Assembly (NCBI GenBank): GCA_042219475.1
Contig: JBDGPX010000042.1
Location: 1-55,308 of the forward strand
DNA: 55,308 nt
Reading direction: 5' to 3'
Source: Halobacteriales archaeon
Lineage (GTDB): Archaea > Halobacteriota > Halobacteria > Halobacteriales > Hikarchaeaceae
Shown: positions 1 to 45,406 of the stretch, piece by piece
How the letters are laid out: every line of letters begins with the position of its first letter
Numbering within the stretch: position 1 is the stretch's first letter
Translations under genes and position numbers: made by a program
Notes under the pieces: generated by a model
Databases searched by the model: none
Told to the model about the DNA's origin: nothing
What the model saw: only the letters and a program-made list of their open reading frames with translations

Positions 1-323
1 TCGAGACGGTGAATCCCCGGAACACGTCGAAGGCGTGCCACGCCTGCGGTGAACATGGCTACCGGCCACGACAGGCGACGTTCAGATGTTCGAACGACGA
101 CTGTTGGGTGGGTGAGTATCAAGCCGACGTGAACGGGGCGATAAACAATGCAGACAAGTATCACGACCGTAGTGGAGAGAGTCACGGCCGAAGCGAGCGG
201 GTTTGCCGGCAGAAGGCCGGTGACGATGACTCGGCTACGGATGGGGCTTCGTTGACCGGGCCACAAGACAGCCACGCGGATGCTGAACCCCAGCAGGTGA
301 GGCGTGGAACGGATGGGTCTTGA
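1..323 (+). CDS. tnpB: 3' part of RNA-guided endonuclease TnpB (IS200/IS605 family), truncated by the window edge
   Basis: VNPRNTSKACHACG...FRCSNDDC zinc ribbon followed by the RuvC-III motif QADVNGAIN; low-complexity C-terminal tail overlapping the omegaRNA. Confidence 0.93.
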   Translation, partial: ETVNPRNTSKACHACGEHGYRPRQATFRCSNDDCWVGEYQADVNGAINNADKYHDRSGESHGRSERVCRQKAGDDDSATDGASLTGPQDSHADAEPQQVRRGTDGS

Positions 324-398
324 AACCAACAGGCCGCAGTGCTGGGCCTGAAATCCCGTGGTGGGATTCCTCCGTGTTTACGCGGAGGAGGAGGTCAA
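1..398 (+). mobile_element. Right part of an IS200/IS605 (IS1341-like) element
   Basis: tnpB 3' end, subterminal hairpin CCTCCGTG-TTTA-CGCGGAGG (369-388) and terminal TCAA (395-398). Confidence 0.9.
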
Positions 399-41986: not shown

Positions 41987-42157
41987 ATGCCAGTACTCGG
42001 GATGCCGACGGACATGTTTCTCGTGTTCGTCGCGACACTGATCGCAGGTAGTATCGGGGCGATGCACTTCATCGTCGTCCACGTGATCATGGGCAAACCG
42101 GTCGACGAAGGAGTTCTGATAGCCACTCAAGAGCGAGGTGAGAGCGATGGTAGTTGA
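41987..42157 (+). CDS. 56-aa single-TM protein upstream of the symporter (below the ORF-track cutoff)
   Basis: MPVLGMPTDMFLVFVATLIAGSIGAMHFIVVHVIMGKP...; overlaps the symporter start by 11 nt. Confidence 0.75.
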   Translation: MPVLGMPTDMFLVFVATLIAGSIGAMHFIVVHVIMGKPVDEGVLIATQERGESDGS

Positions 42158-43610
42158 TCAGTTAGGTGAGGGAGTTAATCCGTTTTACCTCGGGACATTC
42201 ATCGTTTATCTGTTGATCGTGCTTGCCATCGGCGCATGGGGCTATCGACAGACAACGGACGTCAATGACTTCTGGGTCTACGGTAAAGACCTCGGGCCAT
42301 GGCTGGCGACCTGGTCGTATGTCGCGAACTTCGTCTCGGCGGTCTCGGTGATCGGGTTTATCGGCGCCGTCTACGGCGGCGGTTACTCGATCCTGACCGG
42401 GATCATCCTCGGCCTGATGCTGGGCGTATCGGCGCTGTATTTCGTGGTGCACAAGGTCCGCGAGCTAGATAAGGTGACCTTCCCTGACATCATCAGAGAA
42501 CTGACCGGCCGGGAAGTCGCTCGTCCGATCGCGGCGATTCCTCTGCTCGCGAACGCGTGGGTCTACCTGATCATGCAGCTGGTGGGCGCAAGCCTGCTGG
42601 TGACGACGATCACCGGCGTCCCCTACAAGTACATGATTTGGGTGATCGGCTTCGTCTTCATTGCCTACACCGTGATGGGAGGCCTCATCTCGGTCGCCTG
42701 GACGGATCTGATCCAGGGCACGGTGATGGTATCGACGGTATTCCTCGCGCTGATCTTCATCGTCATCGACCAGGGTGGCTTGACGGCGATCAACACCCAA
42801 TTCACCCAACTTGAAGCCGCCAACACCATGCCGCTCGGTGACGGAGCGTACACTATTATCGGAATGCTCGGTTCACTAGTAGCGTTCTTCGGGACCATCT
42901 TCACCTCCCAGGGGACGATCATTCGAATCAACGCGACCAAGGACATCCGGACGGCGAAGATCCACCTCGCCTTCGGTGGGTTGATCCTTTCGGTGTTCTA
43001 CATGGCACTGATCCTGCTGGGCGGTGGTGTCGACGTCGCGCTACACAACGCCGGATTAGCGAACTTCGAAAACGTCGACCAAGCGTTCCCCGTGTTCATC
43101 ACTGAGTACCTGCCAACTGGGATCGGCGTCATCGTGATCCTGGCGGTGATGTCAGCGATCCTCTCGACCACCGATACGCGCCTACACTCGACGGGAGTGA
43201 CGACCGCACGCGACATCTACGACTGGTACGCCGAGGATGCCTCGGACGAACAGCTCATGAAGGTCTCGCGGATCGCGACGATCTTCTGGGGGCTGACGGC
43301 GACGGCGATGGCGGTCGATCCGCCGGGAACGATCATTACGCTGTATACGTTCCGGGCGATCCTGCTGACTAGTGCCTTCCTAATCCCGATCTATCTCGGG
43401 TTGTACTGGCGCGGGGTTGCCGGCAACGCGGTTATCGCGTCGATCATCGTAGGGACAATCCTCGGCGTCGGCTGGGATCTCAGCGGTGGCTTCTTCGGCG
43501 TCCCGGCGACGTTTATGGGCGTCGGCGGCGCGATTCTCGCCCTAGTGATCGGCCACTACATCTGGTCGGAATCGGGCGGCTCACCGACGGCCACCGCAGC
43601 CGGCGAGTAA
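42147..43610 (+). CDS. Sodium:solute symporter (PutP/SSS family)
   Basis: About 13 TM helices; YTVMGGLISVAWTDLIQG, SAILSTTD; SD-like GAGGTGA upstream. Confidence 0.93.
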   Translation: MVVDQLGEGVNPFYLGTFIVYLLIVLAIGAWGYRQTTDVNDFWVYGKDLGPWLATWSYVANFVSAVSVIGFIGAVYGGGYSILTGIILGLMLGVSALYFVVHKVRELDKVTFPDIIRELTGREVARPIAAIPLLANAWVYLIMQLVGASLLVTTITGVPYKYMIWVIGFVFIAYTVMGGLISVAWTDLIQGTVMVSTVFLALIFIVIDQGGLTAINTQFTQLEAANTMPLGDGAYTIIGMLGSLVAFFGTIFTSQGTIIRINATKDIRTAKIHLAFGGLILSVFYMALILLGGGVDVALHNAGLANFENVDQAFPVFITEYLPTGIGVIVILAVMSAILSTTDTRLHSTGVTTARDIYDWYAEDASDEQLMKVSRIATIFWGLTATAMAVDPPGTIITLYTFRAILLTSAFLIPIYLGLYWRGVAGNAVIASIIVGTILGVGWDLSGGFFGVPATFMGVGGAILALVIGHYIWSESGGSPTATAAGE

Positions 43611-43627
43611 CCACACACCCGACTTCA

Positions 43628-43640
43628 CCCGTTCTTTTTC
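43628..43640 (+). terminator. Archaeal oligo-U terminator of the symporter gene
   Basis: TTCTTTTTC about 20 nt after the stop codon. Confidence 0.5.
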
Positions 43641-43683
43641 GATCAGATATGGCGAAGAGCCGCGGGCGTCTCGTCCGCTTGAT

Positions 43684-44058
43684 TAACCGATAGCGGATAC
43701 CGCCGTCTTGAGGCGGAGGTCGAGCGGTCGGCCGGATGGGCAGCCGCCGACAGTGGCCGGGCGGGATTTCGACGGTTAAGCGTTTGTTGTGGCCCGGTGT
43801 AGCATAGAGTGCTACGGAATCGGTGATATACCGGCCCCGAAGGAGGGGGATGGCGAGCCAACAGTGGTTCGCACGGCGATGACACGGATTCCGATGGGAC
43901 CTGTTTGACCGGGCCACAGCCCGATACGGGAGAGCAAACGAGCGTTTCGCCGGGATATTCCCGGTTCCCCCCTGAGTGCGGGTTGGAACCTCGAACGCCA
44001 CACCCGGCGGGAATTCCATGGTGGGATTCCACGTCCTTCAGGGCCTGGAGGAGGTCAA
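43684..44058 (+). mobile_element. Non-autonomous IS200/IS605-derived element containing only an omegaRNA
   Basis: Preceded by TTGAT (43679-43683); left hairpin CCGCCGTCTTGAGGCGG (43700-43716); right end GTGGGATTCC...GGAGGAGGTCAA matching 361-398; no tnpA/tnpB ORF. Confidence 0.82.
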
Positions 44059-44078
44059 TAACCGATAGGGATCGAATG
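43810..44078 (+). ncRNA. Stand-alone TnpB omegaRNA (scaffold plus guide); 5' end approximate
   Basis: Shares CGATGAC, GATGGG, TTGACCGGGCCACA (43905-43918 = 252-265) and the 3' end with the tnpB-linked copy; compensatory stem changes. Confidence 0.8.
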
Positions 44079-44093
44079 CGAACCGGTGGACCG

Positions 44094-45254
44094 TCAGTCC
44101 AACAGCTCCCGGACGGCCCGCTTCAACACACGGAGTCCCGTGCCGGCCTGTGCGAGGTCGGTGTGTTCGTCGAACGTGTGAGCCTGATCGAGCGGACCAG
44201 GACCCCAGGTGACGGCTTCGATATCGGCGTCATTGACGAAGTTCCGGACATCGGTAGAGGCCTGGATGCCCCAGGGATCGCGTGAGATATCGGCGATGTC
44301 CTCGCTGTGGTCCCGGAGCGTCTCCGCCAGTTCGCTGTCGACAGGGATCTCGGCGGATTCGTAGGTGCGGGTACGCTCCCACTCGATTTCGATGTCGTGT
44401 TCGTCCTCGATGTCAGAGAGCAAAGCATCGATCTCGGCATCGATCTCCTCGGTCGATTCGGCCGGCAAGAACCGACGGTCGATCGTGATCGTTGCCCGTT
44501 CGGGAACGACGTTCTCCTTAGTGCCAGCTTCGAACATCGTGACCGTCGAGTACGCCTGCCCGACCAGCTCGTCCTCCCGCTGGCGGACCCTGGCATCATA
44601 CTCGATCAGGGCATCCAGTACCGGTCGGGCGTTGAGGATGGCGTTCGAGCCCTGATCCGGCCGGCTCGCGTGGGATGGATCACCCTCGATCGTTATCTCG
44701 TACCACGCGAGGCCTTTCTCGCTGGTCGCGGTCCGCAGCTCTGTCGGCTCAAGGACGACACCGTAATCGCCGTCGTATCCCAGCTCCAGCAGGCGTTTGG
44801 TTCCCGGTTCGGCAGTTTCCTCGCCGATGGCGGCATGGACGACGATCGATCCGTCGATGTCGCCCGATTCCAGGGGCTCCTGCAATTCGGCCGCCGCCAT
44901 CATCGCGACGGCGACACCACCTTTCATATCCGCACTACCTCGGCCATAGAGTTTACCATCCTCGATCGTACCACCGTATGGATCGTAGGCCCATTCGTCG
45001 CGGTCCCCGGCCGGAACGACATCGATGTGGCCATTCAGGACGACGGTCGGGTCGCCCGAACCGACTTGAGCGGCGACCTGTGGTCGGTCCTCGTAGGGAT
45101 CGCCGATGAGTTCGGCATCGATCCCGCGATCGCTGAACCACTCCTGAATGTATTCGGCACACGGTGCTTCATTGCCCGGCGGGTTTTCGGTCTCGATCGA
45201 GACCAGATCGGCGAGCAACGATTCGAGCTCCTCGTGGCGTGGTACGGCTGCCAT
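44094..45254 (-). CDS. M20 metallopeptidase/deacylase (ArgE/DapE family)
   Basis: NGHIDVVP, GRGSADMKGG, GEE, HAS.P, GPG..DQAH..DE. Confidence 0.93.
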   Translation of the reverse strand: MAAVPRHEELESLLADLVSIETENPPGNEAPCAEYIQEWFSDRGIDAELIGDPYEDRPQVAAQVGSGDPTVVLNGHIDVVPAGDRDEWAYDPYGGTIEDGKLYGRGSADMKGGVAVAMMAAAELQEPLESGDIDGSIVVHAAIGEETAEPGTKRLLELGYDGDYGVVLEPTELRTATSEKGLAWYEITIEGDPSHASRPDQGSNAILNARPVLDALIEYDARVRQREDELVGQAYSTVTMFEAGTKENVVPERATITIDRRFLPAESTEEIDAEIDALLSDIEDEHDIEIEWERTRTYESAEIPVDSELAETLRDHSEDIADISRDPWGIQASTDVRNFVNDADIEAVTWGPGPLDQAHTFDEHTDLAQAGTGLRVLKRAVRELLD

Positions 45255-45406
45255 AGCCGAAGTGAGACCGACTCGGCGCAAAAAGCCATCGTCGTCGTGA
45301 AGAACCACGAGTGATTAACGGCTATCGGGCGGCCAGCACGGCGTATCAAGACAGGGACAACGGTGACCCAAGGATCTTGCCTATCCGGCCCCGAAACGGG
45401 CTATCG

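What the first reader, a model, noticed from the sequence alone, without database searches (positions are those of the whole stretch)
43679..44073. The orphan omegaRNA guide matches a TAM-adjacent site at its own left end (self-targeting seed or atypical 10-bp duplication)
Seen: the predicted guide after TCAA is TAACCGATAG-GGAT (from 44059). At 43679 the sequence reads TTGAT-TAACCGATAG-C-GGAT, a perfect 10-nt match (14 nt with one gap) immediately 3' of TTGAT. Known: TTGAT is the TnpA target and TnpB TAM of ISDra2-type elements. IS200/IS605 elements normally make no target duplication, and insertion normally separates TAM from guide so the occupied site is immune. Here TAM plus seed is retained about 80 nt upstream of the putative promoter. 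Inference, three options: (a) seed-only pairing lets TnpB bind without cutting, giving RNA-guided autoregulation or protection of the left ends of this family; (b) the element inserted into or next to a relic left end, resembling an RE-LE junction; (c) a non-canonical insertion or repair created a 10-bp direct repeat. Option (a) would be an undescribed regulatory circuit.
Basis: partly seen in the sequence, partly recalled or inferred. Interest (0 to 1): 0.85.

Follow-up and report, generated by a model that had tools for sequence, protein, structure and literature searches.

The report
Mini transposon beside a copy of its own start
A 375-base gene-less haloarchaeal mini-transposon that carries a guide-RNA scaffold is flanked by a real 10-base direct repeat, so its guide resembles its own left end; this looks like a one-off accident of insertion or repair, not a regulatory circuit.

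Summary
TTGAT+TAACCGATAG lies at 43679-43693, and TCAA|TAACCGATAG lies at 44055-44068. The repeat brackets a 375-bp tnpB-less IS200/IS605 (IS1341-type) miniature element, a PATE. It has a left-end hairpin and a conserved omegaRNA scaffold, and it sits between a symporter gene and an M20 peptidase gene.

Eight of the ten repeated bases (ACCGATAG) are ancient left-end sequence of this IS family across the order. So the unusual part is the right flank, which is the predicted guide and which mimics the element's own first 14-15 nt.

One contig from a relative about 7% diverged shows the site empty, with a single copy of the 10-mer. Only this copy, 1 of 30 complete elements, shows the left-end/flank identity. 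No other RE|LE-like junction was found in 301 genomes.

The guide's best TGAT-adjacent match in the assembled genome is its own left junction: 11 of the first 12 positions and 0 of the last 4. In ISDra2 TnpB, double mismatches in positions 1-12 abolish cleavage.

Best reading: a historical by-product. Either the flank is a relic left-end junction, or the left end was remodelled by repair at a chance microhomology. A selected self-targeting circuit is unsupported but not excluded (about 5%). The element is of a known kind and interest is low to moderate.

The parts
43679..43683 (+). TTGAT: target pentanucleotide 5' of the left end, and inferred TAM
   Evidence: NTGAT precedes the left end in 12 of 13 junctions found by BLAST. 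It also does so in 28 of 30 elements, but that sample was selected with a GAT-containing pattern.
43684..44058 (+). 375-bp tnpB-less IS200/IS605 (IS1341-type) miniature element (PATE)
   Evidence: Copies at 75-84% identity occur in the same genome, in relatives and in named haloarchaeal plasmids. A contig in run X4 skips exactly 43684-44058 (table 5). The ORFs that overlap it mechanically have no Pfam family.
43684..43693 (+). Left copy of the 10-mer, the first bases of the left end; ACCGATAG (43686-43693) is family-conserved left-end sequence
   Evidence: The commonest junction in the order is TGAT|ACAGACCGATAGCGCATACC.
43700..43716 (+). Left-end subterminal hairpin CCGCC(N7)GGCGG, 16 nt from the cleavage site (18 nt in typical relatives)
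   Evidence: The stretch before the AGCG box is 8 nt here, 10 nt in 28 of 30 elements and 9 nt in 1 of 30.
43870..44058 (+). omegaRNA scaffold, homologous to the 3' end of tnpB-bearing relatives, ending in TCAA
   Evidence: BLAST to L100 and L102, inside and after tnpB. In a 13-sequence alignment, 20 of 43 predicted pairs carry compensatory changes. Weak Rfam HgcC hit at 43993-44067: 21.5 bits against a gathering score of 50.
44059..44074 (+). Predicted 16-nt guide, i.e. the right flank; 44059-44068 is the right copy of the 10-mer and 44059-44072 is the left-end-like 14-mer
   Evidence: The guide length of about 16 nt is taken from passages of 10.1101/2023.11.30.569447 and PMC10097598 and was not measured here.
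42138..43610 (+). Upstream gene: sodium:solute symporter
   Evidence: Pfam PF00474, E 5.9e-41.
44094..45308 (-). Downstream convergent gene: M20 peptidase
   Evidence: Pfam PF01546 and PF07687.
1..398 (+). 3' end of a tnpB gene with a related omegaRNA and a right end (GGAGGTCAA at 398): a resident relative that could supply TnpB in trans

Best explanation
What is shown. Positions 43684-44058 are a palindrome-associated transposable element (PATE) derived from an IS1341-type IS200/IS605 element. It has a left-end hairpin, a PATE-specific core and the omegaRNA scaffold, and it has no tnpB. It sits 3' of TTGAT and ends in TCAA, as the family does. Its 'guide' is simply the host DNA to its right. 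The guide resembles the element's own left end because the 14 nt right of TCAA (TAACCGATAG-GGAT) copy the element's first 15 nt (TAACCGATAGCGGAT). Eight of the shared ten bases are conserved left-end sequence. The arrangement is unique to this copy.

What is inferred. It is a historical by-product, not a selected device (about 0.7 overall). I cannot separate two histories.

(i) About 0.35, a slight preference: the right flank is a relic left-end junction. Either a copy inserted at the TTGAT that still precedes the left end of an older copy of the same lineage, or TnpA made a head-to-tail dimer. The downstream copy was later deleted except for about 15 nt. The empty allele then arose by precise excision or by deletion between the repeats.

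(ii) About 0.3: the host site happened to carry ACCGATAG two bases after TTGAT. After a canonical insertion, a repair event replaced the first four bases of the left end with the flank's TA. The repair would be TnpB-cut donor-joint repair or other microhomology-guided repair. The product would be an 8-nt rather than 10-nt left-end start and a perfect 10-bp repeat.

Consequence, inferred. A cognate TnpB loaded with this omegaRNA would find TTGAT plus 11 of 12 TAM-proximal matches at its own left junction and no distal matches. That may allow weak binding. I expect little or no cutting.
For: Element identity and mobility: and the 375-nt skip in X4. Family left end TGAT|ACAGACCGATAGCGCATACC in many genera: 70 of 301 genomes match the pattern. 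Only 1 of 30 complete elements has left-end start equal to flank. No other RE|LE-like junction among 301 genomes apart from one chance hit inside a coding region. No other TAAC-type left end was found. For (i): the similarity runs past the 10-mer to 14 of 15, and the TA start is shared by both copies. Passages of PMC3119063 report that haloarchaeal PATEs and IS605-type elements often nest in one another and suffer deletions that leave terminal remnants. For (ii): the left-end start is uniquely 2 nt short (1 of 30). Identity stops exactly where the lineage-typical CGGATACC, shared with copy C17, resumes. The empty allele with one 10-mer is then simply ancestral. Chance TGAT-N0-4-ACCGATAG sites do exist, about 4 in this assembly. 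On cleavage: PMC10097598 (passages read) reports that double mismatches in positions 1-12 abolish ISDra2 TnpB cleavage and that about 12 bp of heteroduplex is needed.
Against: Against (i): there is no relic sequence beyond 15 nt on either side. No tandem or relic junction was seen elsewhere. No second copy of this left-end variant was found anywhere searched. The empty allele needs an extra excision step or an old relic. Against (ii): it needs a chance 8-mer (12 of 13 if GGAT is counted) at the right offset, empirically about 4 of 25,485 TGAT sites. Against both: each rests on one locus and on one low-depth contig (depth 3.19, one run) for the empty allele, whose letters I could not read. No TnpA gene was found in this 72%-complete assembly, although 8 of 21 genomes searched (this one and 20 relatives) have one. 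The cleavage threshold comes from ISDra2 TnpB, not from a haloarchaeal enzyme.
Confidence: 0.7

Rival explanations
1. Selected RNA-guided self-recognition. TnpB loaded with this omegaRNA binds TTGAT plus the 10-11 nt seed at its own left end without cutting. It thereby blocks TnpA cleavage (immobilising the copy) or represses a promoter inside the element.
For: The geometry is right: same strand, TAM-adjacent, 11 of 12 proximal and 0 of 4 distal matches, and the only such site among 25,485 TGAT sites. Some nuclease-dead TnpB relatives (TldR) act with 9-11-nt guides (passages of 10.1101/2023.11.30.569447). Meers et al. saw weak seed dependence for binding (passages of 10.1101/2023.03.14.532601). 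TnpB genes are present: 9 Zn-ribbon matches.
Against: The arrangement is not conserved: 0 of the other 29 complete elements and no other junction of this kind in 301 genomes. No promoter, transcript or binding was shown. The cognate TnpB of this omegaRNA subtype is not assembled in the genome.
Confidence: 0.05
2. Pure coincidence. This element's natural left end begins TAACCGATAG, and it happened to land in front of the same ten bases.
For: Left-end starts drift quickly: the sister copy C17 has 3 changes in its first 6 nt. A very large scan can surface rare coincidences.
Against: The probability is about 4^-10 per insertion, before counting the extra GGAT. 0 of 2000 shuffles reach the alignment score, and 0 of 29 other elements come close.
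Confidence: 0.05
3. Non-canonical insertion with a true 10-bp target-site duplication. A left-truncated element (starting at CGGATACC) was inserted by another pathway that duplicated TAACCGATAG.
For: The structure reads formally as repeat-element-repeat, and the empty allele keeps one repeat.
Against: The duplicated target would by chance have to supply exactly the 8 conserved left-end bases that were missing, in register. The insertion point still follows TTGAT and the right end is the canonical TCAA. The family makes no duplication in 29 of 30 copies.
Confidence: 0.05

Closest known systems
Haloarchaeal PATEs (palindrome-associated transposable elements; Dyall-Smith et al. 2011, PMC3119063, passages read)
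   Same: It is too short for a transposase. It has subterminal palindromes instead of inverted terminal repeats. Its ends are shared with IS605/IS1341-type elements, it inserts next to a short targeting oligonucleotide, and its copies are heterogeneous. Occupied and empty alleles both exist.
   Different: PATEs are described as making no target duplication. This copy is bracketed by a 10-bp repeat because its right flank mimics its left end. The paper's tables of end sequences are in supplements that I could not open.
IS200/IS605 elements with TnpB-omegaRNA (IS608; ISDra2 as I recall it; ISGst elements)
   Same: The target/TAM pentanucleotide lies 5' of the left end and the right end finishes in TCAA. 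In IS608 the left cleavage site is 19 nt from the hairpin foot and the right one 10 nt from it (PMC3201880, passages). The omegaRNA scaffold spans the right end, and the guide is the flank. PATEs that carry omegaRNAs used in trans are noted by Meers et al. (10.1101/2023.03.14.532601, passages).
   Different: There is no tnpA or tnpB in the element. The left-end spacing is 16 nt here against 18 nt in relatives. Normally insertion separates TAM from guide target; here a TAM-adjacent near-match is retained.
TldR, nuclease-dead TnpB-like RNA-guided repressors (10.1101/2023.11.30.569447, passages read)
   Same: They act through TAM plus a short (9-16 nt) guide match used for binding rather than cutting.
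   Different: TldRs are domesticated, lack transposon ends, have inactivated RuvC sites and have conserved targets in promoters. None of that is shown here.
HgcC RNA / sense-overlapping transcripts of IS1341-type tnpB genes (Rfam RF00062; PMC4615843, listing and abstract only)
   Same: A non-coding RNA at the 3' end of IS1341-type elements. The terminal hairpins and the GGAGGAGGUCA motif align.
   Different: The Rfam score is 21.5 bits, below the gathering score of 50, so it is not a member by Rfam's threshold.

Membership tests
PATE / IS200-IS605 (IS1341-type) derived miniature element | Subterminal palindromes at both ends and no inverted terminal repeats | tested here: met
   Left-end hairpin at 43700-43716 and two right-end hairpins; both are conserved in copies. 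The left-end fold alone is not better than shuffles (z -1.17).
PATE / IS200-IS605 (IS1341-type) derived miniature element | Ends homologous to those of transposase/TnpB-bearing elements | tested here: met
   The left end and the last ~190 nt match 1.85-2.0-kb elements with 426-432-aa stop-to-stop frames, read as tnpB from their position and size only (L100, L102). The same left end precedes a Y1 tnpA in G008:C9.
PATE / IS200-IS605 (IS1341-type) derived miniature element | Insertion 3' of a fixed 4-5-nt target; right end finishes in a fixed tetranucleotide | tested here: met
   NTGAT in 12 of 13 junctions found by BLAST. TCAA at the right end in all 13 aligned copies.
PATE / IS200-IS605 (IS1341-type) derived miniature element | No target-site duplication | tested here: inconclusive
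   29 of 30 family members have none. This copy has a 10-bp direct repeat, but 8 of its 10 nt are inherited left-end sequence, so it is not a classical duplication.
PATE / IS200-IS605 (IS1341-type) derived miniature element | Too short to encode a transposase | tested here: met
   375 bp. Three overlapping mechanical ORFs have no Pfam family.
PATE / IS200-IS605 (IS1341-type) derived miniature element | Mobility: occupied and empty alleles | tested here: met
   One X4 contig joins 43683 to 44059. It is a single contig at depth 3.19 in one run.
TnpB omegaRNA | Conserved structured scaffold ending at the right-end boundary, shared with tnpB-linked copies | tested here: met
   13-sequence alignment including 3 tnpB-linked copies; 20 of 43 pairs have compensatory changes.
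TnpB omegaRNA | Transcribed and bound by a cognate TnpB; guide of about 16 nt | not testable with these tools
   The tools offer no way to test binding or guide length. TnpB genes are present (9 matches), but the cognate full-length element is not assembled.
Rfam HgcC (RF00062) | Score at or above the gathering threshold | tested here: not met
   21.5 bits against 50, E 0.046.
RNA-guided repressor of the TldR type | Conserved guide-target pair in a promoter across genomes; nuclease-dead effector | tested here: not met
   The guide/left-end match is seen in 1 of 30 elements only. Effector catalytic residues were not examined.

The most novel reading that the evidence does not exclude
This PATE may be a natural case of an omegaRNA whose guide recognises its own TAM-adjacent left junction (11 of 12 seed positions). 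TnpB would dock on the left-end cleavage site without cutting. It would thereby either lock the copy against TnpA excision or throttle its own transcription. Alternatively the single-base gap at guide position 11 is the scar of escape from lethal self-cutting after a head-to-tail duplication.
Probability: 0.06. Interest if true: 0.7.

Novelty: new member of a known kind. Interest (0 to 1): 0.3.

Why it matters
The element is an ordinary haloarchaeal PATE with an omegaRNA, a known kind. The junction is a curiosity. It offers a ready-made natural substrate for asking how much TAM-proximal pairing a haloarchaeal TnpB needs to bind or to cut. It also records either a tandem or relic insertion, or a repair event, at an IS200/IS605 end. 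If further cases were found, it would show that these elements can come to target themselves.

Tried and rejected
Orthologous empty site in reference genomes. The same-genus genome G001 keeps both flanking genes but has an unrelated 708-bp intergenic segment. More distant genomes lack the synteny.

JGI metagenomes. A search with the M20 protein gave 3 loci. The best (75% aa identity) has a different neighbour.

Exact scans all gave 0 hits. The left-end variant 21-mer was scanned in genome contigs and viral contigs. The right-flank 21-mer was scanned in genome contigs and viral contigs. TGAT plus the 16-nt guide was scanned in viral contigs. These find exact matches only, so diverged copies are missed.

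RE|LE pattern in 301 genomes. Besides the window, the only hit was a chance match inside a coding region (read by eye as a replication factor C gene with an intein; no family search was run).

A 'TGTAACCGAG' left-end-like hit in G087 is not an element of this family.

G021:C34 looked like a full-length relative but is a mini element interrupted by another insertion.

No RNA holder was listed for the locus, so expression could not be examined.

I considered TnpA excision of a downstream tandem copy at a pseudo-site (..GGAT|) to explain the relic's boundary. I rejected it because that position should be the left guide sequence next to the hairpin foot, by analogy with IS608 (PMC3201880).

I rejected integration of a circle by crossover in ACCGATAG, because it predicts ACAG/ATAG rather than TA in the right copy.

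Paper searches listed no report of an omegaRNA guide matching its own left end. That covers only the open-access library searched. The supplements of PMC3119063 (tables of PATE ends) are closed and may bear on this.

Sampling caveats. The 30 elements came from loci chosen with patterns that require GAT plus a left-end box and a 10-nt spacing. The script scanned 54 loci. It dropped copies with no recognisable right end within 2.45 kb and copies that failed the left-end regular expression. The spacing and TAM counts are therefore biased towards the pattern.

Full report
Observation. TTGAT lies at 43679-43683, followed by TAACCGATAG at 43684-43693, then C and GGAT. GGAGGTCAA ends at 44058, followed by TAACCGATAG at 44059-44068 and then GGAT. 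The exact 10-mer occurs only at these two places in the window. The 15-nt alignment (14 matches, one gap) between the right flank and the start of the element is reached by 0 of 2000 shuffles. Contigs that Logan assembled from run X1 cover both junctions without differences (records 4 and 7). X1 is probably the source sample.

What lies between the repeats. Positions 43684-44058 are a 375-bp repeat element. It sits in the convergent intergenic space between a sodium:solute symporter gene and an M20 peptidase gene.
- The same genome holds a sister copy at 84% identity (C17), a second copy (C82) and many ends at contig breaks.
- Relatives in several genera and named haloarchaeal plasmids (Natrinema, Natribaculum, Natronorubrum and others) carry copies at about 75-83% identity.
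- Its first ~50 nt and its last ~190 nt match elements of 1.85-2.0 kb. Each of those carries a 426-432-aa stop-to-stop open frame, which I take to be tnpB from its position and size; I ran no family search on it (L100, L102).
- The last ~190 nt overlap the 3' end of that frame and run to the right end, as an omegaRNA does.
- In an alignment of 13 copies, three of them tnpB-linked, 20 of 43 predicted pairs show compensatory changes. These include a long-range pairing of TTGACC with the terminal GGTCAA.
- Rfam's HgcC model hits weakly, at 21.5 bits against a gathering score of 50.
- The mechanical ORFs across the element have no Pfam family.

This matches the palindrome-associated transposable elements (PATEs) described for haloarchaea (PMC3119063, passages). 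It also matches the omegaRNA-bearing PATEs noted by Meers et al. (10.1101/2023.03.14.532601, passages).

Target and ends. Left junctions found by BLAST with the element interior are preceded by NTGAT in 12 of 13 cases and by TCAT in one. All aligned right ends finish in TCAA. The layout parallels IS608, where the left cleavage site is 19 nt from the hairpin foot and the right one 10 nt from it (PMC3201880, passages). No Y1 transposase gene was found in this 72%-complete assembly. Eight of the 21 genomes searched (this genome and 20 relatives) have one, including the same-genus genome. In G008:C9 a tnpA lies directly behind this family's left end. Nine TnpB Zn-ribbon matches are present in the genome. 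One is at the very start of the window, followed by a related omegaRNA and a right end at 398.

Which side is odd. Across 301 genomes of the order, 70 have the left-end pattern. The commonest junction is TGAT|ACAGACCGATAGCGCATACC; ATAG-, AGAG- and ACAA- starts also occur. So ACCGATAG, eight of the ten repeated bases, is old conserved left-end sequence and not a target duplication. The window copy differs only at its very start. It has TA in place of four bases, which gives 8 nt before the AGCG box. That stretch is 10 nt in 28 of 30 complete elements and 9 nt in one (the sample is biased by the search pattern). No other TAAC-type left end was found. The unusual side is therefore the right flank, which mimics the element's own start. 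In the other 29 complete elements the right flank is unrelated to the left end: 0-1 contiguous matches, and a local score of at most 14 against 24 here. A search for a right end followed within 6 nt by ACCGATAG found only the window and one chance hit inside a coding region.

Empty allele. When four public runs were laid on the locus, one contig of run X4 joined 43683 directly to 44059. The contig is 457 nt at depth 3.19 and differs at 25 of 338 letters over the peptidase gene. It skips 375 nt, and 10 letters fit either side of the joint. A relative about 7% diverged therefore has the site without the element and with one copy of the 10-mer. A second strain in X1, and the same-genus genome G001, have an unrelated ~700-760-nt segment there instead.

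Explanation. Everything fits a canonical insertion 3' of TTGAT, with the guide being the right flank. The open question is why the flank looks like the left end.
- Pure chance is about 4^-10 before counting GGAT.
- A true target duplication would need the target to supply exactly the conserved bases that were missing.
- Crossover of a circle in ACCGATAG predicts the wrong first bases in the right copy.

Two histories remain.

(i) The flank is a relic left-end junction. A copy inserted at the TTGAT that still precedes an older copy of the same lineage, or TnpA joined two copies head to tail. The downstream copy was later deleted except for about 15 nt. This history needs no sequence coincidence, and it explains the extension to GGAT. 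It also fits the nesting and deletion habits of these elements reported in PMC3119063 (passages). But it needs several events and leaves no further relic. It also needs the empty allele to be derived, or the relic to be old.

(ii) The host site happened to carry ACCGATAG two bases after TTGAT. About 4 such sites exist among the 25,485 TGAT sites of this assembly. After insertion, a repair event paired the flank with the left end and overwrote its first bases. Repair of a TnpB-cut donor joint from a sister copy is one possible route. This history explains the uniquely short left-end start. It also explains why identity stops exactly where the lineage-typical CGGATACC resumes, and why the empty allele carries the 10-mer. 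But it needs that coincidence.

My rough priors put the two within an order of magnitude of each other. I give 0.35 to (i) and 0.30 to (ii).

Function. The guide and the left junction lie on the same strand, with the TAM 5' of the match. Positions 1-10 and 12 match. Position 11 and positions 13-16 do not. For ISDra2 TnpB, double mismatches in positions 1-12 abolish cleavage. About 12 bp of heteroduplex is needed, and cuts fall 15-21 nt from the TAM (PMC10097598, passages). Here those cuts would fall at the foot of the left-end hairpin. Binding without cutting is conceivable. Some TldR proteins work with 9-11-nt guides (10.1101/2023.11.30.569447, passages). But nothing indicates selection. The arrangement is seen in 1 of 30 elements, and the guide has no match in the viral contigs scanned. 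Its ordinary target is the empty site itself.

Verdict. The element is a known kind. The self-match is a one-off structural by-product whose exact history is unresolved. The regulatory reading is not supported, but it can be tested.

Noticed in passing
window 1-398: The contig starts inside the 3' end of a tnpB gene (Zn-ribbon domain). A related omegaRNA follows, and a right end finishes at 398 (GGAGGTCAA|CACATCC...). This is a second IS1341-type element in the window, cut by the contig end.
   Followed up: partly
window 43728-43869: The central ~140 nt of the mini element is conserved among mini copies in several genera (for example GCTACGGAATCGGTGAGA). It has no BLAST match in the tnpB-bearing relatives examined. 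It is a PATE-specific core that may hold the promoter or the 5' part of the RNA.
   Followed up: partly
G000 C4, C19, C70, C118, C129 (left ends); C4, C20, C84, C135 (right ends): A second, near-identical multi-copy lineage (TGAT|AGAGAACGCGAGCGCATACC ...) breaks at least nine contig ends. Its interior is not assembled, so it is unknown whether these copies carry tnpB.
   Followed up: partly
L054 (G021:C34) 522-1520: A mini element of this family is interrupted by a ~1.1-kb insertion encoding a 332-aa protein with CxxC...CxxC motifs, which looks like another transposase. This is an example of one element nested in another.
   Followed up: no
L086 (G172:C1), right flank of a 378-bp copy: Ten bases after the right end, the flank reads AGCGGTAGTGTCCGG. 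This resembles AGCGGTAGGCCCGG just after the element's own left-end hairpin (local score 18, not tested against shuffles). It may be chance or another trace of adjacent element remnants.
   Followed up: partly
G000 C82; L050 and L051 (G022): Some copies carry a ~48-nt longer left-end hairpin region (CCCCCGCCTTCCCGTGAGTGA...GGAGCGAACAGGCGGGGG).
   Followed up: no
window 43612-44137 compared with L019 (G001:C27) and an X1 contig: The same intergenic position holds an unrelated ~700-760-nt segment in the sister species and in a second strain of the source sample. The segment has a possible small ORF. So at least three alleles of this spacer exist.
   Followed up: partly
L141 (G008:C9) 1-462: A Y1 transposase (tnpA) gene lies about 160 nt inside a left end of this family (TGAT|AGAGACCGCAAGCGCATACC). 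This is a candidate autonomous relative that could mobilise the mini elements.
   Followed up: partly
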